64,000 bases of DNA, from contig JAFGJY010000019.1 of the NCBI GenBank assembly GCA_016928875.1, positions 1,996 through 65,995 of the forward strand, read 5' to 3'. Position numbers and translations under genes: made by a program. The stretch comes from Candidatus Omnitrophota bacterium. Its GTDB lineage: Bacteria > Omnitrophota > Omnitrophia > JAHJGZ01 > JAFGJY01. Below the pieces are notes generated by a model. The model was not told the DNA's origin. It did not search any database and worked only from the letters and a program-made list of their open reading frames with translations. Positions 10,530 to 33,024 of this stretch are shown piece after piece; positions within the stretch are counted from its first letter, which is position 1; every line of letters starts with the position of its first letter.

Positions 10530-11432
10530 TCAATACCCGGCAAACAATCCTCGTAGGTTCTCATGCTGGATCATTTTAGCAGGTCCTCTTTGGATACTTT
10601 TTACGAAGCAATTACAATCAAGAACTGAATAAGAATATTTCCTCCTTAATGCCTCTTCCATGATATCGTACACTAATCCATTATCGTACAAGTGCATTTC
10701 GTGGCATTGATAGATCTCAGCATCAGGTAATATTTTTGCGATTTTGCGGCGATTATATTGAGTTACTTCTATTTCACCTATATTTACATGATCTACGCCG
10801 ATATCCTCAATAATGGGCAACATCTCGAAGAGCTTTGTTTTATGCGGAGGCCATGCCGGTGTTTCAACGGTTAGCGCTTTAAAATACTTCCTGGCTAGGG
10901 ATACGTTTTTGTAAACGTCCTTTGAGAAATTTGATGCACCGAGATGAAACCGTATTTCATCAATGCCAAGGTCTCGGAGCTCCTCAAGTATATCTTTGGT
11001 CGCCAAAACTCCGTTTGTGTAAAGGTAAAACCACGGGCTTCCCTTAGTCTCCTTTTTGATATCATTGTACACCTTCATATATTCTCTAATGGTCTTCATG
11101 TACAAAAGTGGCTCACCGCCTCCGCTAAAACTGATCGAAGTTGGGCGATAATGAGGCTCACGCGATTCCCGTATTATTGACGTAATCGTATTGAGCAAGT
11201 CGATCTTTCCAGGTTCTTTCATTTTGTAAAAACAATAACAGCAATTGAGATTACACTTTGCTCCCGTAAGTAGATTGCGATGATATCTATCATAGACGAA
11301 ACAACTGCCGCACCCGGGAGAGATTTTTCCAATATGCACGCAATGTCCACTGGCGTGATATTGAAGCTCTTTGATGGCTTCCTGTCGCTTGAACTTTCTT
11401 GTGTATGCTTCTTGTATAGATAATAGTTTCAT
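10530..11432 (-). CDS. radical SAM protein (no SPASM domain seen)
   Basis: CNLNCCYC (CxxxCxxC) plus SFSGGGEPLL glycine motif; extra N-terminal Cys pair (GCGSCF); start taken at MKLLSIQEAY to avoid overlap with the kinase. Confidence 0.65.
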   Translation of the reverse strand: MKLLSIQEAYTRKFKRQEAIKELQYHASGHCVHIGKISPGCGSCFVYDRYHRNLLTGAKCNLNCCYCFYKMKEPGKIDLLNTITSIIRESREPHYRPTSISFSGGGEPLLYMKTIREYMKVYNDIKKETKGSPWFYLYTNGVLATKDILEELRDLGIDEIRFHLGASNFSKDVYKNVSLARKYFKALTVETPAWPPHKTKLFEMLPIIEDIGVDHVNIGEIEVTQYNRRKIAKILPDAEIYQCHEMHLYDNGLVYDIMEEALRRKYSYSVLDCNCFVKSIQRGPAKMIQHENLRGLFAGY

Positions 11433-11436
11433 CTCT

Positions 11437-12393
11437 TTAAATACGGCTTTCTGAGGATCGTGATAACTTCCTGACAAACGTAATTATGCTCTTGTCATTG
11501 ACAAATCCCAATCGGTAACACGGTACATTTTTTATTACATGCTGACATAATGAGGCAATGCTTTCTAACCCTTCCTTATCCCAGAACGTGGGAAACAATG
11601 CCGGATACAATAATTTAAATGCCTCTGCCCCGGAGACCTTCTCGGCAACATTTTTTGAAGAGTGATGAATGAAAAACAAGACATTAAGTCGGGCAGATTC
11701 TATCTTAGAGTCAAGATAATCGCTAAATTCGCCATGCCACGGAGAACCATAAATAACGAATGTTCCCGCTTCTTTACGCACAATGATCCGATCGTCATTT
11801 AAGACCATGGCTTTCGTGTGCTTATGCCACAGTCTCGCGGTCGTGGTTTTACCATCGCCTGATTTACCAGCGAAAACAAATCCTCTGCCATCAATATCTT
11901 TTACGCCGATAGCATGGGTGAATATACCTTGATTTCTTTGAGCAAGATAATTTATCAAAAGGATCTGCAAAAAGTCGTAAATGATGTCTGATGTTGTCCA
12001 CACATACCCTGCACTCTTTTTAGGCAATAGATATGCGGTTACTTTATCAAAGGTTTTATTCACTACCATAAGCTGCTTTTTATTCGCGAGTGGACAGGTA
12101 AAAATATAGCCCTTTTCGTTCTTAAATAATCTCCAGTTTTCACTGCCGTCCTCAAAATGGTATGTAACAAACAACCGTTTTTTCTTCGTTATTGCAGGCA
12201 GTTTATTAACGATCTTGATCTTAACATTGATGTGTGGTGTCCGGTTCCCCTTGCAAAAGAACTTCTCGTAGCGTTCAAGCCTTTGCTCTTGCTTGACTTG
12301 CTCTGTGAGCGTTTCGAGCGGGAAGCGGCTTGCAAGTCGAATAACCACATCAGAGATCTTTAACGTAATTGTTCCCTTTCCAGAGAGCTTCAT
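11437..12393 (-). CDS. HPr kinase-related P-loop kinase-like protein (paralog 2)
   Basis: FAGKSGDGKTT...VLNDDRIIV block homologous to the other three paralogs. Confidence 0.6.
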   Translation of the reverse strand: MKLSGKGTITLKISDVVIRLASRFPLETLTEQVKQEQRLERYEKFFCKGNRTPHINVKIKIVNKLPAITKKKRLFVTYHFEDGSENWRLFKNEKGYIFTCPLANKKQLMVVNKTFDKVTAYLLPKKSAGYVWTTSDIIYDFLQILLINYLAQRNQGIFTHAIGVKDIDGRGFVFAGKSGDGKTTTARLWHKHTKAMVLNDDRIIVRKEAGTFVIYGSPWHGEFSDYLDSKIESARLNVLFFIHHSSKNVAEKVSGAEAFKLLYPALFPTFWDKEGLESIASLCQHVIKNVPCYRLGFVNDKSIITFVRKLSRSSESRI

Positions 12394-12414: not shown

Positions 12415-13284
12415 TTACATTGGAATATGCGGTTGATACACAATTCTATTCACTCCACTGTGCTTATACTCCCGTAGGCGTAATCGCGCGTTTTTATAGA
12501 ACTGTGTGTTGCCTCTAAGATAAATGATCTTAGGCATGGTTCTATGCCTCAGCTTAAATATATACCTCTGACATTCTTTTGCGCATGCCCTGATCCTGAG
12601 CAATGACTTCTCTTTCTCTTCACACCCGGCCGTAAGGCAATAAAAGGTCGTACTAATATAAACATACGGCACGTAAACTGACGCGCCTATTTTGTCTTTT
12701 GGTAATGCTAACGACAGGCCTTGCTCAGTATTATCTAACTCTATTCTGCTTATGCGCTGAGAAATTAAAAAATCGTGAATGATCGGGACGCTTGCCGTAT
12801 TTGAACCTTTGTAATACGGGTCTACTCCCGAAGGAAGCGGTTTTTGAATAAGAATAGTCCGCTTCCCAGGATTTATATAATCTACCATAAGGCGTGGTGT
12901 TACCTCTCTCTTAAGTAACGATATTATACGAGGCCCTCGTTTCTGCTTAGTAAGTAATCTGCCCAATACCGGAATAAGATTGCGATACTTACTGTTAACT
13001 AGACTTAACACTCCCCAATCATTAACTATTACCTCACACGTAATATCTTCTGACTTTAAATATTCAAACAATACCTGCAACTCCTCTAAACCACTATTTG
13101 TCACACACGGGCTCACAAGAGAAAAAGCTAATCTGCTCTGTTTGGTGTAATGTATGACGGTCTGAAGATCCCGTAATGAAGGAATGAGTCGTTCGCAGAA
13201 CTCATTACCATAATACAGTCTGGTATACATGTCATCCGCGTCGGTCAATTGAGCGATATTAGTAATAAAGAGAGCTTTTTCCAA
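12415..13284 (-). CDS. peptidase U32 family protein, short UbiV-like form
   Basis: N-terminal RLYYGNEFCE (compare UbiV VIYLGETVC) and C-terminal Cys cluster YCLTAGC..x12..C..x3..C resembling the U32 Fe-S ligand pattern; paralog of 16303-17205. Confidence 0.5.
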   Translation of the reverse strand: MEKALFITNIAQLTDADDMYTRLYYGNEFCERLIPSLRDLQTVIHYTKQSRLAFSLVSPCVTNSGLEELQVLFEYLKSEDITCEVIVNDWGVLSLVNSKYRNLIPVLGRLLTKQKRGPRIISLLKREVTPRLMVDYINPGKRTILIQKPLPSGVDPYYKGSNTASVPIIHDFLISQRISRIELDNTEQGLSLALPKDKIGASVYVPYVYISTTFYCLTAGCEEKEKSLLRIRACAKECQRYIFKLRHRTMPKIIYLRGNTQFYKNARLRLREYKHSGVNRIVYQPHIPM

Positions 13285-14163
13285 TTAGCTATCCTCTCCT
13301 TTTACGAGAACATTTTTACTCCCAGAGAAGTAGAAGGATATTTTGCCGTGCGTATCTTTCTTCGCGAAGATCAACTTATCGCGTATGTAATGGTCTGCAT
13401 TTACAGGACAAAAACTTTGGCATATTCTGCAGACCGATTTTTGATCGTACACCGCTTCATCCCAAATAGCATCTTGTTTACATGCTCGCCCTATCAGAGT
13501 CAACGTATCATTAACGACACGTTTACAGTGATCTTTGTGTGAAGCGAATAACGAGAAATTGTCGATCTGTTCACTAGGACATGCGTTCACGCAAATAGTG
13601 CAATCTTTACACCCGGGATATTCTTTGGGGTGCATGGGGGTGTTATAGTACATTTTAGTTTCGGAAAATAGCACCTGCAGTTTAATGTCAGAGCCAAATC
13701 GTGGATTGATGATCAACGAATTTTTACCGAATTGCCCCAGGCCCGCATAGTACGCAATGTCTTTCAGTAAAAGTATTTTATTTCTGGTGTCATAGCCGGT
13801 ACGTTTCAAATATGAATATTCATTACCGACAATATTCTGTTTATCCGGTTTGTTATCTCTGTCCAACACATGTGTTTTGATGCGTAATTTCTTCCATAGG
13901 ATAACGGCTACTTCCAATATAATATCTTCTACCGAATAATCCAATGCTATTGGCGTGTAATGTGCCAGAATTATTATGGATTTGACCGTGGGCATCACAT
14001 CGCGGGGCCGGGCACTGTATTTCGGCCCGCCGTATTCGAGAGGAATATGACACAGGTGTGAGTCACATCGTTCTAAATGCTCCGGATCGCAAATCCCAAT
14101 GTGGCATATTTCTCGCAACGCATTCGGCAATAATGCTTCTATATCTTGAGCGTGTATTTTCAT
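13285..14163 (-). CDS. QueG (epoxyqueuosine reductase)-like 4Fe-4S dicluster protein
   Basis: GCKDCTICVNACP and CRICQSFCP ferredoxin motifs in a QueG-like arrangement; paralog of 21073-21798. Confidence 0.55.
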   Translation of the reverse strand: MKIHAQDIEALLPNALREICHIGICDPEHLERCDSHLCHIPLEYGGPKYSARPRDVMPTVKSIIILAHYTPIALDYSVEDIILEVAVILWKKLRIKTHVLDRDNKPDKQNIVGNEYSYLKRTGYDTRNKILLLKDIAYYAGLGQFGKNSLIINPRFGSDIKLQVLFSETKMYYNTPMHPKEYPGCKDCTICVNACPSEQIDNFSLFASHKDHCKRVVNDTLTLIGRACKQDAIWDEAVYDQKSVCRICQSFCPVNADHYIRDKLIFAKKDTHGKISFYFSGSKNVLVKGEDS

Positions 14164-15215
14164 TTACGATACCCCCCCTCGAGTATTACTGAAGGATGGT
14201 AACAATTATTACCTCTACATTGATCCGCATAGTTAAACGTTGTTTGATACAAATGTTGTACTTGATGGATAAATTCTATTTTTGATATACCGTTATTATT
14301 CTCTATAATATCTAAAACCGCTCGGATAAATCGTGTACTTGTAAACCTCTTTTGCGCATCCAGCTGTCGTCCAACGATCTTAAGTAATGAAATCTTAGTC
14401 TTATTGATATCGTATAGCGCGCAGGCCCCACATTGCACGCCGTCAATGAGGTGTTTGTGAAAAGTAGGCCGTATATCAGGCTTTGTGACCTTCTTCCCTT
14501 CGTGATCGAATGTCTCAACAGAATAATCTAACCAGCATGCATCAGATTCTGCTTGCGGGTCGTACGCTGTAGCAACATGTAGCCGCTGCTGAGCGCCCCA
14601 TTCTTCATGTGAAATGTCCTCCGTTGAATCTCTCCCCGCTGTATGCAGGAACGTACAAAAGCCATCAGTGTAAACACAGAGTGTATTTAAGACAAAAACC
14701 TCGAACGCTATATCCGGATTATCATCCGACAACGTTCTCATTGATTCCAGTGTTGTTTGTCGATCCAAGACAATACGTGACGCACCTAACCTTTTATAGA
14801 ATCGTACCGCTTCGGAGTTAAAAACTGTACCACCCGTAGAAATATGGATCTGCCGCGTACATCCCATTTCTCGTAATGTCAACAAGAGACCAATATCAGC
14901 TACGATATAACTATCGATATCGATGCCCTCAAGCTGAGAAATAATTTTGAGCAGCAATGGGTATTGCTCTTTCACGTACAATCCATTCAATGTCAAATGA
15001 ACAGGTGTATTTCGTGAGTGTGCCAACGTAACTGCTTCCGTCAACTCTTTAAGATCCGTAAAATTACTGCCGCCCCCCTTGCGTTCGAACTCAAACGCCG
15101 TGTATTGTCTCGCCCATTCGGGCGACATATATCCACAATATAATTCATCTGCTCCCGCATCGATCAGACGCATTACTTCTTCTTTTTCTTTAAATGGCGC
15201 AATGATCTTTAACAT
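14160..15215 (-). CDS. peptidase U32 family protein, long UbiU/RlhA-like form
   Basis: IDAGADELYCG...FTDLKE..HLTLNG..ADIGLL..GASRIVL TIM-barrel blocks and the U32 signature-like EVFVLNTLCVYTDGFCTF; start chosen at MLKIIAPF by alignment to UbiU. Confidence 0.65.
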   Translation of the reverse strand: MLKIIAPFKEKEEVMRLIDAGADELYCGYMSPEWARQYTAFEFERKGGGSNFTDLKELTEAVTLAHSRNTPVHLTLNGLYVKEQYPLLLKIISQLEGIDIDSYIVADIGLLLTLREMGCTRQIHISTGGTVFNSEAVRFYKRLGASRIVLDRQTTLESMRTLSDDNPDIAFEVFVLNTLCVYTDGFCTFLHTAGRDSTEDISHEEWGAQQRLHVATAYDPQAESDACWLDYSVETFDHEGKKVTKPDIRPTFHKHLIDGVQCGACALYDINKTKISLLKIVGRQLDAQKRFTSTRFIRAVLDIIENNNGISKIEFIHQVQHLYQTTFNYADQCRGNNCYHPSVILEGGYRK

Positions 15216-15261
15216 ACATTTAAAACACCGTATTCGACATGAAATGTAATTACATGATCTG

Positions 15262-16299
15262 TTACACGAGAGTTTGTTTCTTGGCACGCTTCGCCAGTTC
15301 ACAATAATACGTCACGGGATTATCCATAGCACCTGTTTCTACCAGTGCTCTGCCAGGACATGAGAGGCAGTATTCTCTGGCCTCGCAGTCGTAACATTGT
15401 GAGCCTGCAGTAAGTTCCTTGCCATGTACTAATGGCAGTAATCTATTTGAGATACGTTCAATATCATCTTTAAGTACATTATATGATGGTTCCCGTATCA
15501 AAGTGCAAAGAAACATCTTCCCATGTGGATCGATGTATACGCAGTTCCTGCCGGCGATCGCACAGCGAAATAGATCGTTCGTATGCTCACGTGACGAGGT
15601 AGGCCCACAAATACCACCTTCTTCAACTTTATTATGTAGGTGCATAAACTGATCTGGAGATATTCTTAAACTGCACGGTGAAACATCCCCATTTAAACGT
15701 GCGTATAAAATATCATCCGGACGGAATTGTAACCCGAATCCCTCAACAAACTCCTTTATTTGGGGTAGATGAACGAGATTATCAGTCGTTACTTGTGTTT
15801 TGATCTTAAGTGGGATACGTGCACTCAATATCGATCGTACCCCATTCATCACTCTATCAAAAGAGCCTTGCACTTGGGATATTGCCTCGTAAACATCTTT
15901 TGTGACACCATTAAGGGTAACCTCGACCACAAAAGGAGGCCTTTTCTCAAGATACTGTGCGATCTCTTCTGTCAATGAATAGGCACTTGTAAATATGGTA
16001 ATAATGAAGCCTTTGCCCTTGGCATAAGAATAGATCTCCAGAAAATCCTCTCTCATTAACGGGTCTCCCCCCGTAAAACAAAGCCATAGTATACCTTCAT
16101 CAAATATCCTATCCAATATTCGCTTGACCTCATCGGTCTTTAATTCGTCCTTGCGGTACTCTGGCGTATTGTAGCACTCAGTATAACAGTGTTTGCAGTG
16201 CAGTCCACATCCAAAGGTAAGCTCAAACTGACAGACATTGTGCCGTTTGTTTTTCAAGTGAGTATCTAAGCTGAACGTTCTATATTGTATTTCTTTCAT
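15262..16299 (-). CDS. radical SAM/SPASM domain peptide-maturase-like protein
   Basis: CGLHCKHC (CxxxCxxC), FTGGDPLM, C-terminal SPASM Cys array CYDCEAREYCLSCPG; close paralog of 21791-22864 and 24262-25353. Confidence 0.8.
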   Translation of the reverse strand: MKEIQYRTFSLDTHLKNKRHNVCQFELTFGCGLHCKHCYTECYNTPEYRKDELKTDEVKRILDRIFDEGILWLCFTGGDPLMREDFLEIYSYAKGKGFIITIFTSAYSLTEEIAQYLEKRPPFVVEVTLNGVTKDVYEAISQVQGSFDRVMNGVRSILSARIPLKIKTQVTTDNLVHLPQIKEFVEGFGLQFRPDDILYARLNGDVSPCSLRISPDQFMHLHNKVEEGGICGPTSSREHTNDLFRCAIAGRNCVYIDPHGKMFLCTLIREPSYNVLKDDIERISNRLLPLVHGKELTAGSQCYDCEAREYCLSCPGRALVETGAMDNPVTYYCELAKRAKKQTLV

Positions 16300-16302
16300 G
16301 AT

Positions 16303-17205
16303 CTAAAACGGTAATTCGGGTTGATAAACAACTCTATCTACATCATATTGTTGTATAAGAGCAGCGTTTAAAGGATTACGGTAAAAAACGGTATTGCCTC
16401 TTTTGTAGATAACTTTTGGAATTGCGCGATTTCGTAATATGTCGTAATACCGCTGACATTCTTTTTTACACACATTGATACGATATATCTTTTGGAATGT
16501 AGTTTCCATAGGACAAAATCGGGTCGTAGAGATATTTACAAATGGTGTATAAATGGACTTCTTACACGTGATCCCCTTCACATTCAGGCCCTGAATAAGA
16601 TTATTCAATTCTACTCTGTTTATGCCGAACGTGCTTAAAAAAGCTGCGAATGACGGTGAGTTCACATAGGATGCCTTAACACCCTCTTGGTATCGTTTAT
16701 CGGGGACCTTATGGACAAATATCCGTATTTCCCCATCCTTGCCTTTGGCAGCGACGGGTAATTGCTTTCGAATAATGTGCCCCATAGACGGGTCTCTTTG
16801 TTGACGCACCAACAGCCTGCCAAATGCAAGTTCAAAGCGCCCATCACATTCACTCTTTAGATACTGCAACACCCCCCAATCATTTATCACTATTTCACAC
16901 GATATGTTAGCTTCTTTAAACCAGATGAATGTATCGCGTAATCTCTGTAAGCCGTGCTCTGTAACAAAAGGGGTAACATACGTAAATCCGAGCCCTTGTT
17001 TTTCAACTCGTTCAAATACTTTTTGTGTCGCTTCGAGCGGAGGGATCAAATTCTGACAAAACTCGTTCCCCCAATACACTCTATGATATTCATCATCCTT
17101 GAGATATTTCATTCCATTAATACTCACTACATGTACGGCCTTTTCTGTTGACGTAATAGATCCCTTGATCGACCGTTCTGAAGACATTGTAATTGCCATT
17201 GTCAA
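16303..17205 (-). CDS. peptidase U32 family protein, short UbiV-like form (paralog of 12415-13284)
   Basis: RVYWGNEFCQ N-terminal motif; C-terminal FC..x..C..x3..C cluster. Confidence 0.5.
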   Translation of the reverse strand: MTMAITMSSERSIKGSITSTEKAVHVVSINGMKYLKDDEYHRVYWGNEFCQNLIPPLEATQKVFERVEKQGLGFTYVTPFVTEHGLQRLRDTFIWFKEANISCEIVINDWGVLQYLKSECDGRFELAFGRLLVRQQRDPSMGHIIRKQLPVAAKGKDGEIRIFVHKVPDKRYQEGVKASYVNSPSFAAFLSTFGINRVELNNLIQGLNVKGITCKKSIYTPFVNISTTRFCPMETTFQKIYRINVCKKECQRYYDILRNRAIPKVIYKRGNTVFYRNPLNAALIQQYDVDRVVYQPELPF

Positions 17206-18464
17206 AGCACCTCACTTGACAGACGACCACCTACTTCTATCATATATAGTGTTTTGTACGATAATACCGTGAGTACTTCATCAGGGGGATCAAGTTGTTT
17301 ACTGACGTGCAGAAGACCTTGTGCTATCTCATCATATGAACTGCTCTCTGATATTATCTTAGATAATCGTTTTTTTATTAATGTAGCCTTTCCCGATTGC
17401 ATGCGATATTTTTTCGTGATCTTGAGAATGATATCTACAAGCATGCTCCTGATCTTTATGTGTGCTTTATCGAGTTTGTCTTTAAGGTGATAACTTTCAG
17501 CAAAATAAATGTCTTTATATTCATATGTTGTAAACGTTACATGTGCACGAGAATGACGCAGAATAAATTCGAGCATTATCTTGAAATCGTTGAAACTCTC
17601 CCCTGGATAACCAATAATTAGAATAAGCGTGATCTTTGTCGTACTGCAATATCTTTCCATCCACGATAGAAATGACATAAAATCTTGCATCTTGAAATCT
17701 TTACCAACTAACTTTATAAGTCGATCAGTTACCGTAATTAATGATATACGCATTGAATCTATCTTGCCTGATTTCAATATTGGTCTTAACTCATCTGCAT
17801 ATGATAGAAATTCAGGGTTCATACAATCAAGTCCGATCCTGTAGTTGCCAGATATTTTCAATATTCTATTCAATAAGGCAGCTAAGTTCGTACCGATGTC
17901 CCATCCGTATATCGCAGTATTCTGAGCAACGAACGAAAATCTTTCATGCTTATCTTCGAGCCCCCTCTTAAACAATGCAATAATGTCGTCTGGATCAAGG
18001 CTGCGAAGCTGGCCAAAACCGTATTTATCAACGCAAAACGTACAATCTTGATAGCACCCTTTAGCAATATATATTGAGTATAAACCGAATTGATTCACGA
18101 ACGGTTGATTGATCGTGTTAAATGGATGTGTAACACCCAAAATAGAATCTAAGTGATCTAATTCTTCATTTAATAAAAATATGATGCCTTCTCTGTCCTT
18201 GATCAGACCCTTTCTCGACGAGAGCACGCCGGTAACAATAAATAGTGCGTTGCTATTCCTATTATTATTTAAATAATCGATAGTTTTTATGGAATCTTCA
18301 TAATAAAACAAACATGTATCACATATCACGACATCTGCTTTCTTAAGATCGTTCGTAAACAGATACTCATTTATCGTCAGGTAGTTTACGAGCAGGGTTC
18401 TTTCCAAAAAGTGTTCTTGATTACCTTCTGAGACACCTTGGAAATACACGGTTTTTGAACTCAT
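17202..18464 (-). CDS. MiaB/RimO-like methylthiotransferase-family radical SAM protein (divergent N-terminal domain)
   Basis: MTTase-like N-terminal domain (VVICDTC resembles MiaB VLLNTCS) but the first cluster Cys is replaced (FQGVSEGNQ versus TWGCQMN); rSAM motif AKGCYQDCTFCV matches MiaB EGCNKYCTFCV. Confidence 0.6.
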   Translation of the reverse strand: MSSKTVYFQGVSEGNQEHFLERTLLVNYLTINEYLFTNDLKKADVVICDTCLFYYEDSIKTIDYLNNNRNSNALFIVTGVLSSRKGLIKDREGIIFLLNEELDHLDSILGVTHPFNTINQPFVNQFGLYSIYIAKGCYQDCTFCVDKYGFGQLRSLDPDDIIALFKRGLEDKHERFSFVAQNTAIYGWDIGTNLAALLNRILKISGNYRIGLDCMNPEFLSYADELRPILKSGKIDSMRISLITVTDRLIKLVGKDFKMQDFMSFLSWMERYCSTTKITLILIIGYPGESFNDFKIMLEFILRHSRAHVTFTTYEYKDIYFAESYHLKDKLDKAHIKIRSMLVDIILKITKKYRMQSGKATLIKKRLSKIISESSSYDEIAQGLLHVSKQLDPPDEVLTVLSYKTLYMIEVGGRLSSEVL

Positions 18465-18503
18465 AGGGATTTCCTCTTTAATAAAGACAAAAAATACATA
18501 TCA

Positions 18504-20039
18504 TTAAATACTACTACGCCGTGGGAGCATTCCGTTGATTTTGATCAATTTATCGACGTCATCCCTGGATATGGTACCAAGCGAATGTGTAAAGGGATAA
18601 ATAAATCTAAAAGGGAGTTCACCATCATAGGCATAGCGTATCCCATACTGTTCGGGGTCATTAAATACGGCATTATTCGGTGTCAGATAGTAAACGTTAA
18701 TGATAGGTTGTACATTTGGATACTCAACGAGCGAACAAACGGTATCCAGGGCTTCATCAATAGTTTCACTGGGAAGCCCGATCATTACCTGGCAACATAT
18801 TTTTAGCCCCACATCAGAGGCGTCCTTAAGGATACGTTTTGCAACATTTGTTCGTATGCCTTTCTTACAAAAGTTAAGGACTCGCTGGTTCATTGATTCA
18901 AGGCCGCAGACCAATTCGAAGCACCCTGCTTTCTTAATAAGCCTCAATATATCTTTGGTAATAGAATCTTCTAATCTCGAAAAAGACGACCATGCGATCT
19001 TGATATTTTCCCGAATGAGGGCATTACTGAACTCCTCCATTTGGCGTGGAGATAACACCGCATTTGAGATCAGTACGCCGTAACAATTATGCCTTTCCTT
19101 AAGTTCTTTAATGTCCCGTATCACTAATTCTATATTTTTTTCCCGATAGGGCACTTTAGGAAGCGGAAGGTCAACGCAAAATATACATTTATCCCAATAA
19201 CATCCTCTTGATGTTTCATAGGTAAGTGACAATTTGCCCTCTACATTTTTATGGTGCTCTAAGGGGATGCCTTCAAAATCAGGACACGGTAATGCGTCAA
19301 TGTCTTCCTTCGATCGCACGTTAGATGGCACAAAAGTATCGTTACGTTTGAATATCAGGTTCGGAACGTTCGACAGTGGCGTATTTCTCTTAATGGCATT
19401 TATAAGCGAGACCAAAGGGGTTTCACCCTCGGAATAGATCATGTAATCGTAAAACTCGCCGAAGTCACTTCGCTTGATAAGTTCTTCTTTGAATAAGGTT
19501 ATCCATTGGCCTCCCACAACTACTTTGATTTGCGGTATCTCAGATTTTATGACACGGCCGAAGGTGAAGGCGGAAATTACTTGTGAAGGTGCTGTAATGG
19601 ATATACCGACCATATCGTACTTATCATCTTTGATACGTTCGAGGATCTCTCTTTTAAAGAACGCTTTGAATGTATTTTCTTCTTCATCGTCGATATATCG
19701 AAACAAGTTATGTGAAGAAAGCAACTTCTCAGTAAAGTCAAAACGAGCGCCGAGTACCGGATCTACCGGTTCACTGAAACTATTTTGATTTCTATACTGA
19801 ATATCTTTGTAGTAATATACCTTATCCCGTATTTTCTCGTTCCTATACTGCTCTGTTACTATGTGATCGAGTTTATTATTGATAATATAGTTATAATATT
19901 TGTGATCTAAGTCGTCTTGATGCGCATCGATGCCCTGAGCTCTCAAAAATGCAAGAAGCGACGGTGTGCTGAGCGGCGGATGGCCTGTGTTAAATGCCGG
20001 AGGAATTAAGAGTAATATTTTAAATTCAGTGTTTTTCAT
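18504..20039 (-). CDS. B12-binding-domain radical SAM protein (class B-like)
   Basis: N-terminal Rossmann-like B12-binding-type region, then rSAM with the unusual spacing CYWDKCIFC (Cx4Cx2C); 511 aa. Confidence 0.55.
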   Translation of the reverse strand: MKNTEFKILLLIPPAFNTGHPPLSTPSLLAFLRAQGIDAHQDDLDHKYYNYIINNKLDHIVTEQYRNEKIRDKVYYYKDIQYRNQNSFSEPVDPVLGARFDFTEKLLSSHNLFRYIDDEEENTFKAFFKREILERIKDDKYDMVGISITAPSQVISAFTFGRVIKSEIPQIKVVVGGQWITLFKEELIKRSDFGEFYDYMIYSEGETPLVSLINAIKRNTPLSNVPNLIFKRNDTFVPSNVRSKEDIDALPCPDFEGIPLEHHKNVEGKLSLTYETSRGCYWDKCIFCVDLPLPKVPYREKNIELVIRDIKELKERHNCYGVLISNAVLSPRQMEEFSNALIRENIKIAWSSFSRLEDSITKDILRLIKKAGCFELVCGLESMNQRVLNFCKKGIRTNVAKRILKDASDVGLKICCQVMIGLPSETIDEALDTVCSLVEYPNVQPIINVYYLTPNNAVFNDPEQYGIRYAYDGELPFRFIYPFTHSLGTISRDDVDKLIKINGMLPRRSSI

Positions 20040-21076
20040 CGCTTTACAAAGGCCTCGTCTTTAAAAACCGAAGGGTAATAACAGTCATAACGATTGCATG
20101 TAACGTGAAACACCTTTTTAAATAACGTCTTACATTTTTGCACGTATTCTTTTTTTGAAATAGCATCATCGATCAAGAATCCTAATGATTCTTTAATAAA
20201 TAATGTTGCTTTTACTTTCTCTTCCAAGGGTAAATTTCTATCCAGGACTTTTAGGTTACGAGCGCCGATCCTCATTAAGTCATATATAGCACAGGCACCA
20301 CAGCCTTCGATGTCCCGGTCCATCCAATATTTAAACGGTATTGAAGAAGTTTTATTCTTAGTTTTATTTAAGAAGACTCTTTGTCGACGAAATCGGCTCC
20401 GACATCCGCCGGCAAAGCCGCGCTTCGATATACGTGAGGAGCTATAAAAAAAGATGTTTTCCCTTCCAATTCCCTCTTCATTCAATTCACCGGTATCTTC
20501 TTTGCAGTACGTGCAAAGGCCGTCTTCAAAATAACATTGGTCATGGATAATGAATATTTCATATTCCATGTCCGCGTCGTGTATTATCACGTCCCGGATT
20601 TCGCCGATTGTCATTGCTCTAGGTAAAACCACCCTCGTCGCACCCAATGATCTATAAAATTCCACAGCACTGCTATTACAAATGACAGCATCCGTACCGA
20701 TCACGACATCTTTACCACTCAGCACCGCCGGATCCATACGTATAAGCAATGCTGGGTCTGCAAATATTATCCCATCAGCGCCCGCAGACAATACGTCCCG
20801 AATAATACGCTCTGCCATCTCATATTGTTCATCTAAATAATAAAATGCGTTCATAGCAACGTGAACTTTAACACCATGCTTATGAGCTACAGAAATAGCG
20901 TTATCAAGATCAGCCAGTTTCGTAAAATTAGCATGTGACGAACGCTGGTTAATACTAAAGTTTTTATATCTCTTTCGCCAGCTATGCGGTTCTATGCCAC
21001 AGAACAACTCATCAGCCCCCGCCTCACACAACGGTTCCACTTCATAAATATGCGCTAAAGGAGATTTGATTCTCAT
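20036..21076 (-). CDS. peptidase U32 family protein, long UbiU-like form
   Basis: CEAGADELFCG...FTKLAD...HVAMNAF...ADPALL...GATRVVL and a C-terminal Cys cluster DQCYFEDGLCTYC; start set at the internal Met, giving an ATGA overlap. Confidence 0.65.
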   Translation of the reverse strand: MRIKSPLAHIYEVEPLCEAGADELFCGIEPHSWRKRYKNFSINQRSSHANFTKLADLDNAISVAHKHGVKVHVAMNAFYYLDEQYEMAERIIRDVLSAGADGIIFADPALLIRMDPAVLSGKDVVIGTDAVICNSSAVEFYRSLGATRVVLPRAMTIGEIRDVIIHDADMEYEIFIIHDQCYFEDGLCTYCKEDTGELNEEGIGRENIFFYSSSRISKRGFAGGCRSRFRRQRVFLNKTKNKTSSIPFKYWMDRDIEGCGACAIYDLMRIGARNLKVLDRNLPLEEKVKATLFIKESLGFLIDDAISKKEYVQKCKTLFKKVFHVTCNRYDCYYPSVFKDEAFVKR

Positions 21077-21798
21077 TGATTTCCGAAGCTCTTCATGCAT
21101 AATGGATCATTTCTTAACATGGTTACTTGACACTTTGTCTGCTCCTGGCATGCCCGGCAATGATTTAAACCACCGCTTACCCCGCTAAAAACACTGGCCC
21201 TGGCTTCTACTTCATGCCTGACCTCATCATTGTTTATAACTGCCAAGCACTTGGTCATATCGAATCGAAATGTTTCGAGTGTAGTGCCTGAAAAAGCGTG
21301 TCCCGGACATGCGTGATGGCATCGTAAGCAATCAGTATTACATGCGGGAAGGTATTCGGGCAAATTAGGTTTTTGATATCCTTTGATCTCATCGCAAAAG
21401 GCCCATGCAACTATTTTGCAATCAAAACCAAACTTAGGGTTCCAGATCAGATTATTATATCCTCGACAACCAAGACCCGCTTTAACAGCTGCCTCCTTTA
21501 GATCAAGCCTGATCATAAAAATGTTTTTTTTAAAATATGCTGTCAGAATATTTTGTGTTTTCGGCTTGATGTCATAATCATGGGCAACATCGCTATATTT
21601 TACAATGATCAGACTATTTTCTATTTTATTCCAATATTTCTCAGTCCCTTGGTCCAAAGGGATCACCCCTGAAGTAGAATATGCGTCTAGAAGCTTTAAC
21701 TTCATTCTCCCTAATCGCCATGTTTCTTCTTTGTCTAAAACACCGATCTGATATATATCTTCGCGAAAGAGGTTCTTTATTGTTTTGAACTCAATCAT
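21073..21798 (-). CDS. QueG-like 4Fe-4S dicluster protein
   Basis: AGLGCRGYNNLIWNPKFG (QueG-like block), CLRCHHACPG and CRACQEQTKC clusters; start set at MIEFKTIK to remove a 158-nt overlap. Confidence 0.55.
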   Translation of the reverse strand: MIEFKTIKNLFREDIYQIGVLDKEETWRLGRMKLKLLDAYSTSGVIPLDQGTEKYWNKIENSLIIVKYSDVAHDYDIKPKTQNILTAYFKKNIFMIRLDLKEAAVKAGLGCRGYNNLIWNPKFGFDCKIVAWAFCDEIKGYQKPNLPEYLPACNTDCLRCHHACPGHAFSGTTLETFRFDMTKCLAVINNDEVRHEVEARASVFSGVSGGLNHCRACQEQTKCQVTMLRNDPLCMKSFGNQ

Positions 21799-22864
21799 GG
21801 CATACACTACCCTTTGAATAGTCCATTTCTGCAAAGGCACGGCTTTCCGGTTCGCACGAGCTAAAATCATTATTAAAAAGCCACCCTCGTGCCGGGCACC
21901 ATTTACAATATGAAGCAAGTTCACAGGTATCACACTGATAATTATCACCAGGAGTTATACGGGCAACCAACTCTTTAAGCCGTTTCCAGCACCCTTCAAG
22001 CGAGCTGTCTAATATCTTATATTTAGGATGATCTATCATCAGGCACATCTTTAACTCACCCAGTGGCGTGATCGCAGCCTGCGTTCTCCCCACCCCGCAT
22101 TTGAAAAACTCATGCTGAGTGTATTTTTCGTGGATCATTGACCGGTCACAATCAGGATCGTTAGACCGCTTCTTTTGGGACGAAGGATCCGGCGCCTCTA
22201 TGTTATCTGAGGTATACTTCAAAGGTCTTCGATACTTAAATGGCTCGTATGATCCATCGAGGCACGGAGAAAGCAACGCATCTACACGATGCTGTGCTTT
22301 GAGTGAATGCGCAAATTCCTGTATCTGGTCTATCTCGGTTTCATTGCTGTTTAAAACACACGTCTTGAATCCTAAATGCATTCCCTTAGTATGGAGTAAC
22401 TTTATTACATTAAATACCTTGTCTCGTGAGCCTGGTGCTCGACTAACAGACTCAAAGGTCTCACGACGAATGCCTGGTATGGTTATATCTATTAGATTTG
22501 GGCGTAACAGCGCTAATTGCTCCGCGATATGTTCGTCGATCAATGATCCATTAGTATAGAGAATGATCTGAAATCCTAATTCTTTTGCGTACCAAAGGAT
22601 GTCTACTATATCCTCTCTTACGAACGGTTCTCCTCCGGTAAAGCCCAAGTAAAGACAGCCTATGGCTGAAAGTTGATCTAATATATAAAAGACCTCTGTC
22701 GTTGAGAGCTCTTTATACTTTCTGTAACTGTACGGAATATAACAATGACCGCACTCGAAATTGCAGCGATAGGTTAGTTCGAACATTACGCGTAAAGGAA
22801 AGCCTTTATCATGTGCAACATTATGGATACGTTTTCTGAACTCATCATACTGTTGAGATTTCAT
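21791..22864 (-). CDS. radical SAM/SPASM domain peptide-maturase-like protein
   Basis: CNFECGHC, FTGGEPFV, SPASM array CDTCELASYCKWCPARG. Confidence 0.8.
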   Translation of the reverse strand: MKSQQYDEFRKRIHNVAHDKGFPLRVMFELTYRCNFECGHCYIPYSYRKYKELSTTEVFYILDQLSAIGCLYLGFTGGEPFVREDIVDILWYAKELGFQIILYTNGSLIDEHIAEQLALLRPNLIDITIPGIRRETFESVSRAPGSRDKVFNVIKLLHTKGMHLGFKTCVLNSNETEIDQIQEFAHSLKAQHRVDALLSPCLDGSYEPFKYRRPLKYTSDNIEAPDPSSQKKRSNDPDCDRSMIHEKYTQHEFFKCGVGRTQAAITPLGELKMCLMIDHPKYKILDSSLEGCWKRLKELVARITPGDNYQCDTCELASYCKWCPARGWLFNNDFSSCEPESRAFAEMDYSKGSVCHD

Positions 22865-24255
22865 TGTACTACCTCATGAGCTTTTGCCTTACGTATGCAC
22901 TTATCTATTTCTATGCTGCTCAGCTCCGTTCTACCCATATTTCTATAACATCGCGCGAGAGCAAGTGCTACGCAGGCATCATCCGGATTTATCTTTTCTT
23001 CCTTTTTGTATTCTTTTATTGCCCCTGTATATTCTTCCATTTTTTCATAACAAAGCCCTAAGAAGAAATGAGCTCCTTTTGCACCGTTCCTTAATTCCAA
23101 GAAACTCCGCGTATACTTTATCGCATCCATATATTGCCCGACATTAAAACAGGCTCTACTTACCAATTCATAAATATATTCTCTATTGCTGCCTGACGAT
23201 GTTTTTAAGATATTTTCATATACCCGTATGGCGTTTAATTCGTCCTGCTTCCGATCTTGTCCTGAGAAGTCTCGATTAACAACCGTTGCCTTGTGAGCGA
23301 GCATAGTGCAGTATCGACAAGCACTGCAGTTACCATCACAAGCGATCATCGCATTAAAGAAATCGCTGTCACGCAGTGTCTTGTAATCGATGTACTCAAA
23401 ATACACAAGTCCGGGACTATCTAATAGTTCTAAGAGATTACCGTTGAACTCCCGGTTAATATAAGATTCAAGACATAATTGGATCCGGTTCGTGGGAAAT
23501 ACACGCGTTGACAATTTATAATAATCAATAAAGGATTCGTAGTAATTCAGTGCCTCAGGCGGTATAAATGGTACACTAAAAACCTTTTCCTTCTTTCGCT
23601 CATAGATCTCCGTACAGGGATTATCGGCAGCAATACCTTCTGCCACCTTATCAGTGATACTGCTATGGTGCGACAGATTATTATAATGCATAACACGATA
23701 TGGGCAATTACGTAAACATCCTTCATTAAGCATTAAACGTATTTTTAGCGCTGTCCGTTCTTTTATCTGTTTGATCAAGGGTATGTTCCTATTTATATCT
23801 CTGTCAATGGTGAGCACATCAACGCCCAGTTCTTTAAGATATACGGCGTGTTCAACGGTTTTAACGTAGCAATTCACTGACGACTCTATGCGAATATCAC
23901 TGATATGTGTCCGTATCTTTGAAATATACACAGGATTTGTAACCACGACTGAACCAAGGCCCATGTCGCGTAATTCCTTTATATAATCCACTAATCTCTC
24001 AAAATATCTCTTATCGAGACCAACACCTCCCTCGCATGTTGCGTTTAATAAAAGTTGAGAGGTGATATTGAGAGAAGTGCACTTCGCGATGATGTTAGGT
24101 ATCTCTTGGGTATAATTGTGTGCCGGTGAAGTGATTCTTCCTGAACCGATGTATTGGACAGGTGCGGGAAAGTAAAGCGCTTCGATATTCTCTTGATAAG
24201 AACTTAGAAGGTCAAGCAGCTGAGCATCATGGTTATAACCAATTGAGAACTTCAT
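22861..24255 (-). CDS. U32-like TIM-barrel protein with C-terminal TPR repeats
   Basis: N-terminal region resembles the U32 barrel (LKELGVDVLTIDRD...NEGCLRNCPY); the C-terminal ~120 aa are TPR-like (MGRTELSSIEIDKC..); weak call. Confidence 0.35.
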   Translation of the reverse strand: MKFSIGYNHDAQLLDLLSSYQENIEALYFPAPVQYIGSGRITSPAHNYTQEIPNIIAKCTSLNITSQLLLNATCEGGVGLDKRYFERLVDYIKELRDMGLGSVVVTNPVYISKIRTHISDIRIESSVNCYVKTVEHAVYLKELGVDVLTIDRDINRNIPLIKQIKERTALKIRLMLNEGCLRNCPYRVMHYNNLSHHSSITDKVAEGIAADNPCTEIYERKKEKVFSVPFIPPEALNYYESFIDYYKLSTRVFPTNRIQLCLESYINREFNGNLLELLDSPGLVYFEYIDYKTLRDSDFFNAMIACDGNCSACRYCTMLAHKATVVNRDFSGQDRKQDELNAIRVYENILKTSSGSNREYIYELVSRACFNVGQYMDAIKYTRSFLELRNGAKGAHFFLGLCYEKMEEYTGAIKEYKKEEKINPDDACVALALARCYRNMGRTELSSIEIDKCIRKAKAHEVVQ

Positions 24256-25493: not shown

Positions 25494-25745
25494 TTAGGAA
25501 CTTGCTGTACCTGAGGTATGAGCAAAGCCGTAGTATCCCGTAAGTGGATTAGTATAGCACGGTTTGTGGTTCGTTGAGTCTCTCCCCCACGTGCACATTG
25601 CACGGTCAATATAGCTACTGTGTGCGATCCAGCTTCGGTGTGTCCATTGCATCCCGATCGCCATGCACGTACACGCGAGCACTGCCTGCTCGGGATTAAG
25701 CTTTACTCTGGTGATCTCAGGTTTGAATTTTGGTTTTTTTGCCAT
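25494..25745 (-). CDS. putative RiPP precursor peptide X (distinct family)
   Basis: 83 aa with a strong AGGAGA RBS and an 11-nt gap from the PqqD gene; leader KPEITRVKLNPEQAVL then a Cys/Trp/His-rich core CTCMAIGMQWTH..C.W..C. Confidence 0.55.
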   Translation of the reverse strand: MAKKPKFKPEITRVKLNPEQAVLACTCMAIGMQWTHRSWIAHSSYIDRAMCTWGRDSTNHKPCYTNPLTGYYGFAHTSGTASS

Positions 25746-25756: not shown

Positions 25757-26044
25757 TCATATTGACTTAAGAGCCTGTATTTCCCGCAGTTCTTCTAAAT
25801 ATTTTTGCATTTCTTCTTCTATTTCCTCTGGTGTGGCGTCATATTTCTTTAAGATCTCTGCTTTTATATCAGCCACCGTTTTTTTTCCATCGATCAATCC
25901 CCACACCTCCGAAGCAACCTTGTTCAGCGTATAGATGCAATCAATATCGTTGGAAGATTTATAGATCGGAAGAAGAATCGTCTCATCATCGATCACTCTT
26001 GTTACCATATCTTCGTTCTTACGCAAAATCGTGGTATTTTCCAT
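25757..26044 (-). CDS. PqqD-family RiPP recognition element (stand-alone RRE)
   Basis: 95 aa; IYTLNKVASEVWGLIDGKKTVADI matches the PqqD core. Confidence 0.75.
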   Translation of the reverse strand: MENTTILRKNEDMVTRVIDDETILLPIYKSSNDIDCIYTLNKVASEVWGLIDGKKTVADIKAEILKKYDATPEEIEEEMQKYLEELREIQALKSI

Positions 26045-33015: not shown

Positions 33016-33024
33016 AATATAATA

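What the first reader, a model, noticed from the sequence alone, without database searches (positions are those of the whole stretch)
12415..21076. Two UbiU/UbiV-like U32 long/short pairs: candidate O2-independent peptide hydroxylases
The long forms 14160-15215 and 20036-21076 align to UbiU. Shared blocks include xAGADExYxG, FTKL/FTDL, the HLTLNG/HVAMNAF barrel strands, GASRIVL, and a C-terminal Cys cluster resembling the U32 signature ExFxxG[SA][LIVM]Cx4GxC. The short forms 12415-13284 and 16303-17205 carry a UbiV-like N-terminus (Y(Y/W)GNEFC against UbiV YLGETVC) and a CX4-5C..CX3C cluster. In E. coli, UbiU and UbiV form a [4Fe-4S] heterodimer that hydroxylates ubiquinone precursors without O2. 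Two such pairs inside a RiPP-type operon suggest anaerobic beta-hydroxylation, or related chemistry, on a peptide. I am not aware of any reported U32-dependent RiPP tailoring.
Basis: inference. Interest (0 to 1): 0.8.

Follow-up and report, generated by a model that had tools for sequence, protein, structure and literature searches.

The report
Paired iron-sulfur U32 enzymes in peptide operon
A peptide-modification operon from an uncultured Omnitrophota bacterium carries two conserved pairs of U32 iron-sulfur proteins resembling the oxygen-free hydroxylase UbiU/UbiV, and related pairs sit where a tryptophan hydroxylase would be expected in amine dehydrogenase operons, so they probably hydroxylate peptides without oxygen, a chemistry not reported for peptides in the papers searched.

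Summary
Long A (14160-15215) and long B (20036-21100) are U32 proteins by Pfam. Their CX6C aligns with UbiU C169/C176.

Short A (12415-13284) and short B (16303-17205) match no Pfam or NCBIfam model. They belong to a large unnamed family (1863 cluster representatives). Profile comparison shows this family is a remote U32 relative (94% probability, E 8.5e-8; controls at most 5.5%). Its four conserved cysteines map one-to-one onto the UbiV ligands.

The pairing is real. In 80 of 95 cases across many phyla a short gene lies next to a long U32 gene, and one natural short-long fusion exists.

The setting is a RiPP operon: a leader-bearing precursor, a PqqD-like protein, radical SAM enzymes and ABC exporters.

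Hydroxylase chemistry is inferred, not shown. Independent support comes from two Bacillota, where the same kind of pair sits inside quinohemoprotein amine dehydrogenase operons that show no QhpG, the O2-dependent peptidyl-tryptophan dihydroxylase. Other short subunits are fused to methyltransferases and glycosyltransferases.

No paper searched links U32 proteins to peptides. I rate it a new variant of a known kind, of high interest.

The parts
14160..15215 (-). Long A: U32 protein, the UbiU-like large subunit of pair A
12415..13284 (-). Short A: UbiV-like small subunit of pair A, from an unnamed divergent U32 family
   Evidence: 37% identical to short B. Conserved Cys C30, C216, C234, C238. 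In L004 the short A-type orthologue directly follows the long A-type orthologue.
20036..21100 (-). Long B: U32 protein, large subunit of pair B (the start may be 21076)
   Evidence: PF01136 E 1.5e-20. 29% identical to long A. Orthologues in L002 and L004 directly precede short B-type orthologues.
16303..17205 (-). Short B: UbiV-like small subunit of pair B
22861..24255 (-). Third U32-like protein fused to C-terminal TPR repeats, with no short partner
   Evidence: PF01136 E 2.5e-6 on residues 86-172, plus TPR families. Long-family HMM E 3e-4.
13285..14163 (-). QueG/RdhA-like Fe-S protein A, lying between long A and short A; a possible electron partner
   Evidence: QueG TIGR00276 E 3.5e-12, RDH E 4e-11, Fer4_16. 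Its reading frame overlaps long A by 4 bp and abuts short A.
21073..21948 (-). QueG-like protein B, directly upstream of long B (start uncertain)
   Evidence: 29% identical to protein A, E 1e-15. Weak QueG hit.
25494..25745 (-). Precursor peptide, 83 aa, with a conserved leader and a variable aromatic-rich core
   Evidence: Leader KPKFKPEITRVKLNPEQAVLACTC is shared with 19 small ORFs next to U32 pairs in nine other loci. The peptides end in SS. It is the only copy in the window.
25757..26044 (-). PqqD-like peptide-binding protein (RRE)
   Evidence: PF05402 E 1.2e-14. PqqD and ScmD models.
24262..25353 (-). Radical SAM/SPASM peptide maturase
   Evidence: NCBIfam radical SAM/SPASM families. Orthologues occur in L002 and L004.
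21791..22864 (-). Radical SAM/SPASM peptide maturase
   Evidence: orthologues in L002 and L004.
15262..16299 (-). Radical SAM/SPASM peptide maturase, between short B and long A
   Evidence: PF04055 E 3.6e-20. NCBIfam SPASM families.
18504..20039 (-). B12-binding radical SAM enzyme (RiPP C-methyltransferase type), between long B and short B
   Evidence: TIGR03975 E 2.1e-39; PF02310 plus PF04055.
17202..18464 (-). MiaB/RimO-like radical SAM methylthiotransferase
   Evidence: TIGR00089 E 3.9e-36.
11437..12393 (-). HprK-related / ScmC-like protein
   Evidence: HprK_rel_B E 5e-5, ScmC E 1.5e-3. Orthologues in L002 and L004 carry PF27840 ScmC.
10530..11477 (-). Radical SAM enzyme at the downstream end of the operon
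   Evidence: NCBIfam peptide maturase families, E 1e-10 to 1e-11.
26058..27545 (-). Peptide arginase-like (FlmR/OhkR N-terminal domain) plus TPR protein
   Evidence: NF052474 E 2.1e-15. PF12640 E 1.4e-9. 46% identical orthologue in L002.
30824..34791 (-). Two ABC exporters flanking an S24-like peptidase (32584-33015)
   Evidence: PF00664 and PF00005 in both exporters. PF00717 E 1.4e-4, just below cutoff.

Best explanation
The two long/short pairs are two-subunit [4Fe-4S] U32 oxidases built like UbiU-UbiV, and they act on the ribosomal precursor peptide encoded in the same operon.

Shown:
- The long subunits are U32 TIM barrels.
- The short subunits are divergent U32 relatives with a UbiV-type four-Cys motif.
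- The two kinds of gene are almost always neighbours across phyla and are once found fused.
- They sit in a RiPP operon beside a leader-bearing precursor.

Inferred:
- Each subunit binds one cluster. In the long subunit the ligands would be the CX6C plus downstream Cys such as the CGAC. In the short subunit they would be C...C-x14-C-x3-C.
- The PqqD-like protein and the leader deliver the peptide, probably after radical SAM cross-linking.
- The pair removes two electrons from an electron-rich aromatic side chain (Trp, Tyr, His or Phe). A hydroxyl is then installed without O2, with prephenate as the likely O donor by analogy with UbiUV.
- Electrons leave through the Fe-S clusters, possibly to the adjacent QueG/RdhA-like proteins.
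- The two diverged pairs, each with its own orthologues elsewhere, would serve two different sites or two successive hydroxylations.
For: - U32 identity of the long forms.
- All four conserved Cys of the short family (three invariant, C246 in at least 90% of 139 sequences) align colinearly with UbiV C39, C180, C193 and C197. Those residues are the experimentally established cluster ligands.
- Pairing: 80 of 95 short ORFs lie within 400 bp of a long U32 on the same strand, median gap 0, in bacteria and archaea. Orthologous A-A and B-B adjacency is seen in L002 and L004. A natural short-long fusion occurs in L085.
- Peptide context: the precursor family lies directly beside pairs in nine other loci. 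PqqD, radical SAM/SPASM enzymes and exporters are present. The reading frames of the modification genes are packed, from a 4-bp overlap to a 46-bp gap.
- Hydroxylase inference: in Aneurinibacillus thermoaerophilus (L082) and a Planococcaceae genome (L059) the same kind of pair lies between qhpB and qhpF. The operon order is qhpC-A-D-B-short-long-F-E, with no QhpG in the 20-kb loci. QhpG is the O2-dependent flavoenzyme that dihydroxylates a Trp of the cross-linked QhpC peptide.
- Short domains fused to class-I methyltransferases and glycosyltransferases, next to a long U32, fit creation of a hydroxyl group that is then derivatised.
- All characterised U32 oxidases are O2-independent hydroxylases of aromatic rings.
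Against: - No activity of any kind has been shown for this family. Even for UbiUV, direct in vitro hydroxylation has not been demonstrated.
- The short family fails Pfam and NCBIfam U32 models. Its match to UbiV itself is statistically weak: E 0.013-0.023.
- The long forms lack Cys at the positions of UbiU C193 and C232, and instead carry eight conserved Cys, so cluster number and ligands may differ.
- Absence of qhpG was checked only within the loci, not genome-wide. A. thermoaerophilus is, to my knowledge, an aerobe.
- About half of the loci showed no detectable radical SAM neighbour, and some contexts look unrelated to peptides. The family may therefore have several substrate types.
- The heterodimer interface was not modelled.
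Confidence: 0.55

Rival explanations
1. The pairs are Fe-S oxidoreductases that act on the peptide but perform a different oxidation. Possibilities include dehydrogenation, oxidative cross-linking of Cys to an aromatic ring, or decarboxylation. In this reading no stable hydroxyl group is installed.
For: - The role of the clusters and the chemistry of U32 oxidases are unresolved.
- The long forms have eight conserved Cys and a different third and fourth Cys arrangement from UbiU.
- Precursors keep a CxC motif and a mid-core Cys next to aromatic residues.
Against: - Every U32 with a known function is tied to hydroxylation.
- The qhp operons lack exactly a hydroxylase.
- Fusions to methyl- and glycosyltransferases suggest that an acceptor hydroxyl is made.
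Confidence: 0.2
2. They are what the database name says, U32 'collagenase-like' peptidases. In this reading they remove the leader or otherwise cleave the peptide.
For: - NCBI and JGI name the long forms 'U32 family peptidase' or 'putative protease'.
- RiPP clusters need a leader peptidase.
- The 2024 review still allows for a peptidase subclass within U32.
Against: - Strictly conserved Fe-S-type Cys motifs in both subunits.
- An obligate two-subunit architecture like UbiUV.
- The operon has S24/S26-like peptidase candidates.
- In the qhp operons the dedicated leader peptidase QhpE is present alongside the pair.
Confidence: 0.07
3. The pairs do not act on the peptide at all. They modify RNA, a quinone, a sugar or another small molecule, and are only neighbours of the RiPP genes.
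For: - Known U32 substrates are quinone precursors and RNA.
- Some family members have no detected radical SAM or peptide neighbours. One example is Desulfosporosinus L075, next to an RlmN-like gene.
- Some short domains are fused to glycosyltransferases.
Against: - In Omnitrophota the pairs are interleaved with precursors, PqqD and radical SAM/SPASM genes in many independent contigs, often directly after a precursor gene.
- In the window the pair genes are interleaved with peptide maturases, with overlapping or closely spaced reading frames.
- The position inside the qhp operon also points to a protein substrate.
Confidence: 0.1
4. One reading: O2-independent beta-hydroxylation of aliphatic or acidic residues.
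For: Beta-hydroxylated residues are common in peptide natural products. Nothing in the sequence excludes this.
Against: - Known U32 reactions and the proposed mechanism need an oxidisable aromatic ring.
- The qhp analogy concerns Trp.
- The cores are rich in Trp, Tyr, His and Phe.
Confidence: 0.06

Closest known systems
UbiU-UbiV (E. coli YhbU/YhbV), the O2-independent, prephenate-dependent hydroxylase of ubiquinone biosynthesis
   Same: - A large plus small U32 pair encoded side by side.
- The CX6C of the large subunit aligns with UbiU C169/C176.
- The small subunit has its first Cys far upstream in a Y-x-G-x-x-x-C context, followed by C-x(12-19)-C-x3-C, like UbiV C39/C180/C193/C197.
- TIM-barrel fold.
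   Different: - Not orthologues: 90 and 70 bits against a cutoff of 440.
- The small subunit is not recognised by PF01136, whereas UbiV is.
- The large subunit has eight conserved Cys and lacks Cys at UbiU C193 and C232.
- No UbiT/SCP2-type partner was found among the genes scanned.
- The context is a peptide operon, not quinone biosynthesis.
QhpG, the FAD monooxygenase that dihydroxylates the CTQ-precursor Trp of the QhpC peptide
   Same: - The proposed function is the same: hydroxylation of an aromatic side chain of a radical-SAM-cross-linked, leader-bearing peptide.
- The U32 pair sits inside a qhp operon that shows no qhpG, in two Bacillota.
   Different: - Unrelated fold and cofactor (flavin and O2 versus Fe-S).
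- The replacement is inferred from gene order only. Genome-wide absence of qhpG was not tested.
TrhP and RlhA (and B. subtilis TrhP1/TrhP2), the U32 enzymes needed for ho5U in tRNA and ho5C in rRNA
   Same: U32 domain and Fe-S dependence. The TrhP model hits the long forms at E 5.6e-18 and 1.3e-14. That B. subtilis uses two U32 genes is my own recollection.
   Different: Their substrate is RNA, the matches are far below the equivalog cutoff (534), and the domain architecture differs.
SynChlorMet (SCM) cassette and other PqqD/radical SAM-SPASM RiPP systems
   Same: A PqqD-like protein, several radical SAM/SPASM enzymes and an HprK-related ScmC-like protein.
   Different: All SCM models score far below their cutoffs. 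As far as I know, SCM cassettes are not described with U32 pairs.

Membership tests
Peptidase U32 / 'U32 oxidase' family (PF01136) | Match to PF01136 above the gathering score | tested here: met
   Long A 106.3 bits and long B 73.9 bits against a cutoff of 22.4. The short forms have no hit, so by this criterion they are not members.
Peptidase U32 / 'U32 oxidase' family (PF01136) | (beta-alpha)8 TIM-barrel like Mk0906 (PDB 5d88) | tested here: met
Peptidase U32 / 'U32 oxidase' family (PF01136) | Four conserved Cys, typically CX6CX15CX3/4C | tested here: inconclusive
   The CX6C is invariant and aligned with UbiU. The next conserved Cys are at +40 (C227) and +75/+78 (CGAC), not at X15 and X3/4. 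Which Cys are ligands cannot be told from sequence.
Short family as divergent U32 homologues | Significant profile-profile similarity to U32 barrels, above controls | tested here: met
   hhalign 94.4%, E 8.5e-8, 107 columns in register (NDWGVL on ADxGLL; GIxRVELDN on GASRIVLPR). Five control families gave at most 5.5%. A shallower long profile gave 75.5%.
UbiU (NCBIfam NF047963 equivalog) | Score above the equivalog cutoff (440 bits) | tested here: not met
   89.9 and 69.9 bits, covering the N-terminal ~180 residues only.
UbiV-type small subunit | CXnCX12CX3C with the first Cys far upstream, outside the Pfam domain | tested here: met
   Short family: C50...C231-x14-C246-x3-C250, with x14 to x19 across the family. 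Three Cys are invariant in 139 diverse members and C246 is present in at least 90%. The HMM alignment maps them onto UbiV C39, C180, C193 and C197. The spacing is 14-19 rather than 12.
UbiV-type small subunit | Significant sequence similarity to UbiV itself | tested here: inconclusive
   E 0.013-0.023 by hhalign. E 0.016 in a 20-protein test set, where UbiV was the best non-self hit. The available UbiV profile was shallow: the listed homologues are about 85% identical or more.
UbiU-UbiV-like heterodimer | The two subunits co-occur, are adjacent and form a complex | tested here: met
   Co-occurrence and adjacency in 80 of 95 cases, median gap 0. One natural fusion. Physical complex formation itself is not testable with these tools.
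UbiU-UbiV-like heterodimer | [4Fe-4S] binding, prephenate-dependent O2-independent hydroxylation | not testable with these tools
   This needs protein chemistry and isotope labelling.
RiPP biosynthetic gene cluster | A precursor with a conserved leader and variable core, an RRE/PqqD protein, tailoring enzymes and an exporter in one operon | tested here: met
   Precursor family, PqqD, six radical SAM enzymes, ABC exporters and S24-like peptidase. Reading frames of the modification genes are closely packed, from 4-bp overlaps to 46-bp gaps.
SynChlorMet cassette (TIGR04248-04251) | ScmC/D/E/F equivalog scores above cutoff | tested here: not met
   ScmD 36.6 against 100, ScmE 60-65 against 400, ScmF 52-69 against 400, ScmC 17.9 against 125.

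The most novel reading that the evidence does not exclude
The long U32 plus unnamed short subunit pairs form a widespread, so far unrecognised class of O2-independent peptidyl-aromatic hydroxylases. They would tailor RiPPs in Omnitrophota, several other bacterial phyla and DPANN or Asgard archaea. In some Bacillota they would replace the flavoenzyme QhpG in making the cysteine tryptophylquinone cofactor. By making quinone-type residues without O2, they could also drive Cys-aromatic cross-links in peptides.
Probability: 0.4. Interest if true: 0.9.

Novelty: new variant of a known kind. Interest (0 to 1): 0.8.

Why it matters
- U32 Fe-S oxidases are the only enzymes reported to hydroxylate with an organic O donor (prephenate). 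Only quinone and RNA substrates are described, and no in vitro assay exists.
- A peptide substrate would add a new tailoring chemistry to RiPP biosynthesis. It would also explain how strict anaerobes could hydroxylate aromatic residues.
- A soluble, genetically encoded substrate, easily read by mass spectrometry, would give the field a route to reconstituting U32 catalysis at last.
- The qhp-operon finding suggests an oxygen-independent route to a protein-derived quinone cofactor.
- The short subunit defines a large protein family (at least 1863 clusters at 50% identity) that no Pfam or NCBIfam model covers.

Tried and rejected
- Sequence searches of the PDB with long A, short B and the short-family profile found nothing useful. 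Only the long-family profile weakly found 5d88 (E 0.0017).
- hhalign of the shallow short alignment A1 against single UbiV was uninformative.
- The homologue search for UbiV listed only near-identical enterobacterial sequences, so a deep UbiV profile could not be built.
- The AlphaFold-database Foldseek library was unavailable.
The Cys loops are low-confidence in the long A model.
- The promoter and terminator scan did not differ from shuffled sequence and says nothing about co-transcription.
- I considered the semi-conserved aromatic residue after the leader's CxC as the hydroxylation site. It is Y/F/H/W in 17 of 20 precursors, but it is Met in the window's own peptide, so I did not adopt it.
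- I considered the 79-aa ORF at 10036-10275 as a second precursor of the same family. It has no leader motif and no homologue in the other loci.

Full report
**Source and layout.** The window comes from a Candidatus Omnitrophica metagenome-assembled genome: short B is 100% identical to an NCBI protein from that source. Coordinates 10.0-34.8 kb hold one long minus-strand gene array. Within the modification genes (10.5-25.4 kb) the reading frames are packed, from 4-bp overlaps to 46-bp gaps. The order of transcription is:
- two ABC exporters flanking an S24-like peptidase
- a GDSL/TPR protein and a GT4 glycosyltransferase
- a peptide-arginase-like TPR protein and a PqqD-like protein
- an 83-aa precursor
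- a radical SAM/SPASM enzyme
- a U32-like TPR protein
- a radical SAM/SPASM enzyme
- QueG-like protein B, then long B
- a B12-radical SAM enzyme and a MiaB/RimO-like methylthiotransferase
- short B
- a radical SAM/SPASM enzyme
- long A, QueG/RdhA-like protein A, short A
- an HprK/ScmC-like protein and a further radical SAM enzyme.

**The observation.** Both long forms pass Pfam PF01136 by a wide margin (106 and 74 bits; cutoff 22.4). They match the N-terminal half of the NCBIfam UbiU and TrhP models, but far below the equivalog cutoffs.
The invariant CX6C falls on UbiU C169/C176, two of the four ligands established by mutagenesis.
- The long forms differ from UbiU after the CX6C. They have no Cys at the positions of UbiU C193 and C232. 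Within the Omnitrophota family eight Cys are invariant: C27, C180, C187, C227, C262, C265, C333 and C338. Six of these persist in distant partners from Bacillota and archaea.

**The short forms.** They match nothing in Pfam or NCBIfam and are 37% identical to each other.
- An exhaustive profile search shows they belong to a large family: 1863 representatives at 50% clustering, of which 409 score below 1e-30.
- In 139 diverse members the invariant residues include C50, C231 and C250, and C246 is present in at least 90% (short B numbering).
- This gives C...C-x14-C-x3-C, with the first Cys in Y-x-G-x-E-F-C. UbiV has IYLGEAVC39 and C180-x12-C193-x3-C197, its first Cys lying outside the Pfam domain.
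- The family HMM aligns to UbiV in two colinear pieces that put all four Cys on the four UbiV ligands. UbiV was the best non-self hit in a 20-protein test set, but the score is weak (E 0.016). hhalign gave E 0.013-0.023.
- The stronger result is homology to the U32 barrel. Against a profile of 89 long partners, hhalign gives 94.4% probability, E 8.5e-8, over 107 columns. Three radical SAM families, a B12-radical SAM family and the HprK-like family gave 0.6-5.5% as controls.
- I conclude that the short forms are a divergent, unnamed U32 branch with a UbiV-type cluster motif.

**Pairing.**
- Orthology assigns the partners. In contig L004 the long A-type gene is directly followed by the short A-type gene. 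In L002 and L004 the long B-type gene is directly followed by the short B-type gene, with a 4-bp overlap in L004.
- In the window each pair has been split by inserted genes: a QueG-like gene in pair A, and two radical SAM genes in pair B.
- A species-level genome scan found 155 relatives. The taxa are Omnitrophota, Planctomycetota, Thermodesulfobacteriota, Lentisphaerota, Acidobacteriota, Bacillota, Endomicrobia, Undinarchaeota, Nanoarchaeota, Helarchaeota and Methanosarcinales.
- In the 80 loci kept, plus four contigs fetched earlier, 80 of 95 short ORFs lie within 400 bp of a long U32 on the same strand, with a median gap of 0. Both gene orders occur.
- One Victivallales contig encodes a 684-aa protein with a short domain (residues 64-303) followed by a long domain (337-648).
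- This mirrors the UbiU/UbiV genomic signature described. It is indirect but good evidence for a heterodimer.

**Peptide context.**
- The 83-aa ORF at 25494-25745 shares the leader KPKFxPxITR(I/V)KLNPEQAVLxCxC and a C-terminal SS with 19 small ORFs in nine other loci. These often lie immediately upstream of a long/short pair, and their cores are hypervariable and rich in aromatic residues and Gly. The window has one copy.
- A minimal cluster (L002) contains arginase-TPR, two precursors, PqqD, three radical SAM/SPASM enzymes, one U32 pair, ScmC and an ABC exporter.
- At least 43 of 82 loci with a short gene have radical SAM neighbours detectable with the window's own proteins. This is a lower bound.

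**Evidence on chemistry.**
- Nothing here measures activity. Known U32 oxidases (UbiUV, TrhP, RlhA) are needed for O2-independent hydroxylation of aromatic or heteroaromatic rings. Prephenate is the O donor for UbiUV, and the proposed first step is 2-electron oxidation of the ring. The electron acceptor is unknown, and no in vitro assay exists.
- A new and independent lead came from the genome scan. In Aneurinibacillus thermoaerophilus L 420-91 (L082) and a Planococcaceae isolate (L059), a short-long pair with the family Cys pattern lies inside a quinohemoprotein amine dehydrogenase operon. The order is qhpC (gamma), qhpA, qhpD (radical SAM), qhpB, short, long, qhpF (ABC), qhpE (subtilisin-like). 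NCBIfam equivalog models for gamma, alpha and QhpE score above cutoff, QhpD scores just below its cutoff, and the beta-subunit model scores well below its cutoff.
- The flanks of L082 encode a two-component system and a cobalt transporter, with no flavin monooxygenase.
- In the characterised systems QhpG, an FAD and O2-dependent enzyme, dihydroxylates the Trp of the cross-linked QhpC peptide to start cysteine tryptophylquinone formation. The U32 pair therefore sits in an operon that lacks exactly a peptidyl-Trp hydroxylase.
- This parallels UbiI/H/F versus UbiU/V. It is the best available argument that this pair family hydroxylates aromatic side chains of peptides. Its limits: qhpG was not searched genome-wide, and the host is, to my knowledge, aerobic.
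- A second hint comes from fusions. Short domains occur fused to class-I SAM methyltransferases, to glycosyltransferases and to B12-radical SAM modules.
- These fusion genes lie close to a long U32 gene: directly adjacent in L086, one gene away in L087. Small ORFs (L086) or HxsD and radical SAM peptide-system genes (L087) lie nearby. Such fusions fit a newly made hydroxyl that is then methylated or glycosylated.

**Mechanistic proposal and its status.**
- Shown: U32 identity of the long forms, remote homology and Cys pattern of the short forms, conserved pairing, and RiPP context.
- Inferred: one [4Fe-4S] cluster per subunit, leader/PqqD-guided delivery of the peptide, O2-independent hydroxylation of Trp, Tyr, His or Phe with prephenate as O donor, and electron exit possibly via the adjacent QueG/RdhA-like Fe-S proteins.
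- The two pairs are only 29-37% identical, and each has its own orthologues. I therefore expect different sites or successive hydroxylations.

**Rivals.** These are another Fe-S-dependent oxidation of the peptide, a true peptidase role, or a non-peptide substrate.
- The peptidase reading is weakened by the Fe-S motifs, by the separate S24/S26-like candidates, and by QhpE being present alongside the pair.
- The non-peptide reading is weakened by the interleaving with precursors and maturases in many contigs. It is not excluded for family members in other contexts, such as Desulfosporosinus L075.

**Novelty.** Seven full-text searches combining U32 with RiPP, precursor peptide, SPASM, ribosomally synthesized, QhpG or prephenate-and-peptide terms, plus one combining Omnitrophota with RiPP terms, found no report of a U32 protein acting on a peptide. 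A November 2024 review lists only quinone and RNA substrates. The library misses many subscription papers, so prior work cannot be excluded. I classify the finding as a new variant of a known kind: U32 Fe-S oxidases with a new subunit family, a new Cys arrangement and a new substrate class.

Noticed in passing
L082 5162-14203 (Aneurinibacillus thermoaerophilus NZ_FNDE01000005.1) and L059 5313-14253 (Planococcaceae WOYE01000002.1): These are quinohemoprotein amine dehydrogenase operons in the order qhpC-A-D-B-short-long-F-E. A U32 short/long pair is embedded in each, and no QhpG flavin monooxygenase lies within the 20-kb loci. This suggests an alternative route to the tryptophylquinone cofactor.
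   Followed up: partly
window 22861-24255 (-): A third U32-like protein (PF01136 on residues 86-172 only) is fused to C-terminal TPR repeats. It has a CX3C where the others have CX6C, and no short partner. No orthologue was seen in L002 or L004.
   Followed up: partly
window 13285-14163 (-) and 21073-21948 (-): Two QueG/reductive-dehalogenase-like Fe-S proteins, 29% identical to each other, each lie directly beside a long U32 gene. Similar genes sit next to pairs in L012 and L018. They are possible electron partners, or B12 enzymes with a chemistry of their own.
   Followed up: partly
window 17202-18464 (-): A MiaB/RimO-family radical SAM methylthiotransferase sits inside a RiPP operon. It hints at methylthiolation of a peptide, which would itself be unusual.
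   Followed up: no
L085 6859-8913 (Victivallales QKCY01000452.1): A natural single-chain fusion of a short domain (residues 64-303) and a long U32 domain (337-648).
   Followed up: partly
P0297, P0341, P0370, P0338; loci L086 6001-7470 and L087 2963-6625: Short-family domains are fused to class-I SAM methyltransferases, to GT1/GT2 glycosyltransferases and to a B12-radical SAM module. The fusion genes lie close to a long U32 gene: directly adjacent in L086, one gene away in L087. In L086 two small ORFs (87 and 92 aa) lie upstream. L087 also holds HxsD and radical SAM genes.
   Followed up: partly
window 25494-25745 (-); L002, L004, L006, L007, L008, L011, L013, L019, L039: A precursor-peptide family with no NCBIfam match (the window peptide was scanned). 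It has the leader KPKFxPxITR(I/V)KLNPEQAVLxCxC, a hypervariable core with one conserved mid-core Cys followed by G(R/K), and a C-terminal SS. Up to four copies occur per cluster.
   Followed up: partly
window 10036-10275 (-): A 79-aa Cys- and Gly-rich ORF lies 254 bp downstream of the last radical SAM gene. It has no leader motif of the main family and no homologue in the other loci. It may be a second, unrelated precursor, or it may not be a gene.
   Followed up: partly
window 36494-39627 (-): A second RiPP-like module lies upstream. It holds a PqqD-like protein (36494-36802), an S24/S26-like peptidase (36827-37294) and two radical SAM/SPASM enzymes (37478-38581, 38578-39627). An NTP_transf_5 gene lies on the other strand (39766-40959), and the same family also lies near the L002 cluster.
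   Followed up: partly
window 26058-27545 (-): A peptide-arginase-like N-terminal domain (FlmR/OhkR family) is fused to TPR repeats, and is conserved next to the precursors in L002, L013, L014 and L015. It suggests Arg-to-ornithine conversion in the same peptide.
   Followed up: no
L030, L036, L040, L042, L043 (Thermodesulfobacteriota), L066, L067: Short-family genes with no long U32 gene detected in the DNA held for the locus (up to 10 kb each side; in L067 the gene lies at a contig end). These are exceptions to the pairing rule and were not examined.
   Followed up: no
window 47251-51681 (-): MoxR AAA ATPase, DUF58/VWA and BatD-like genes. This looks like an ordinary Bat/MoxR-type cluster unrelated to the finding.
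   Followed up: no
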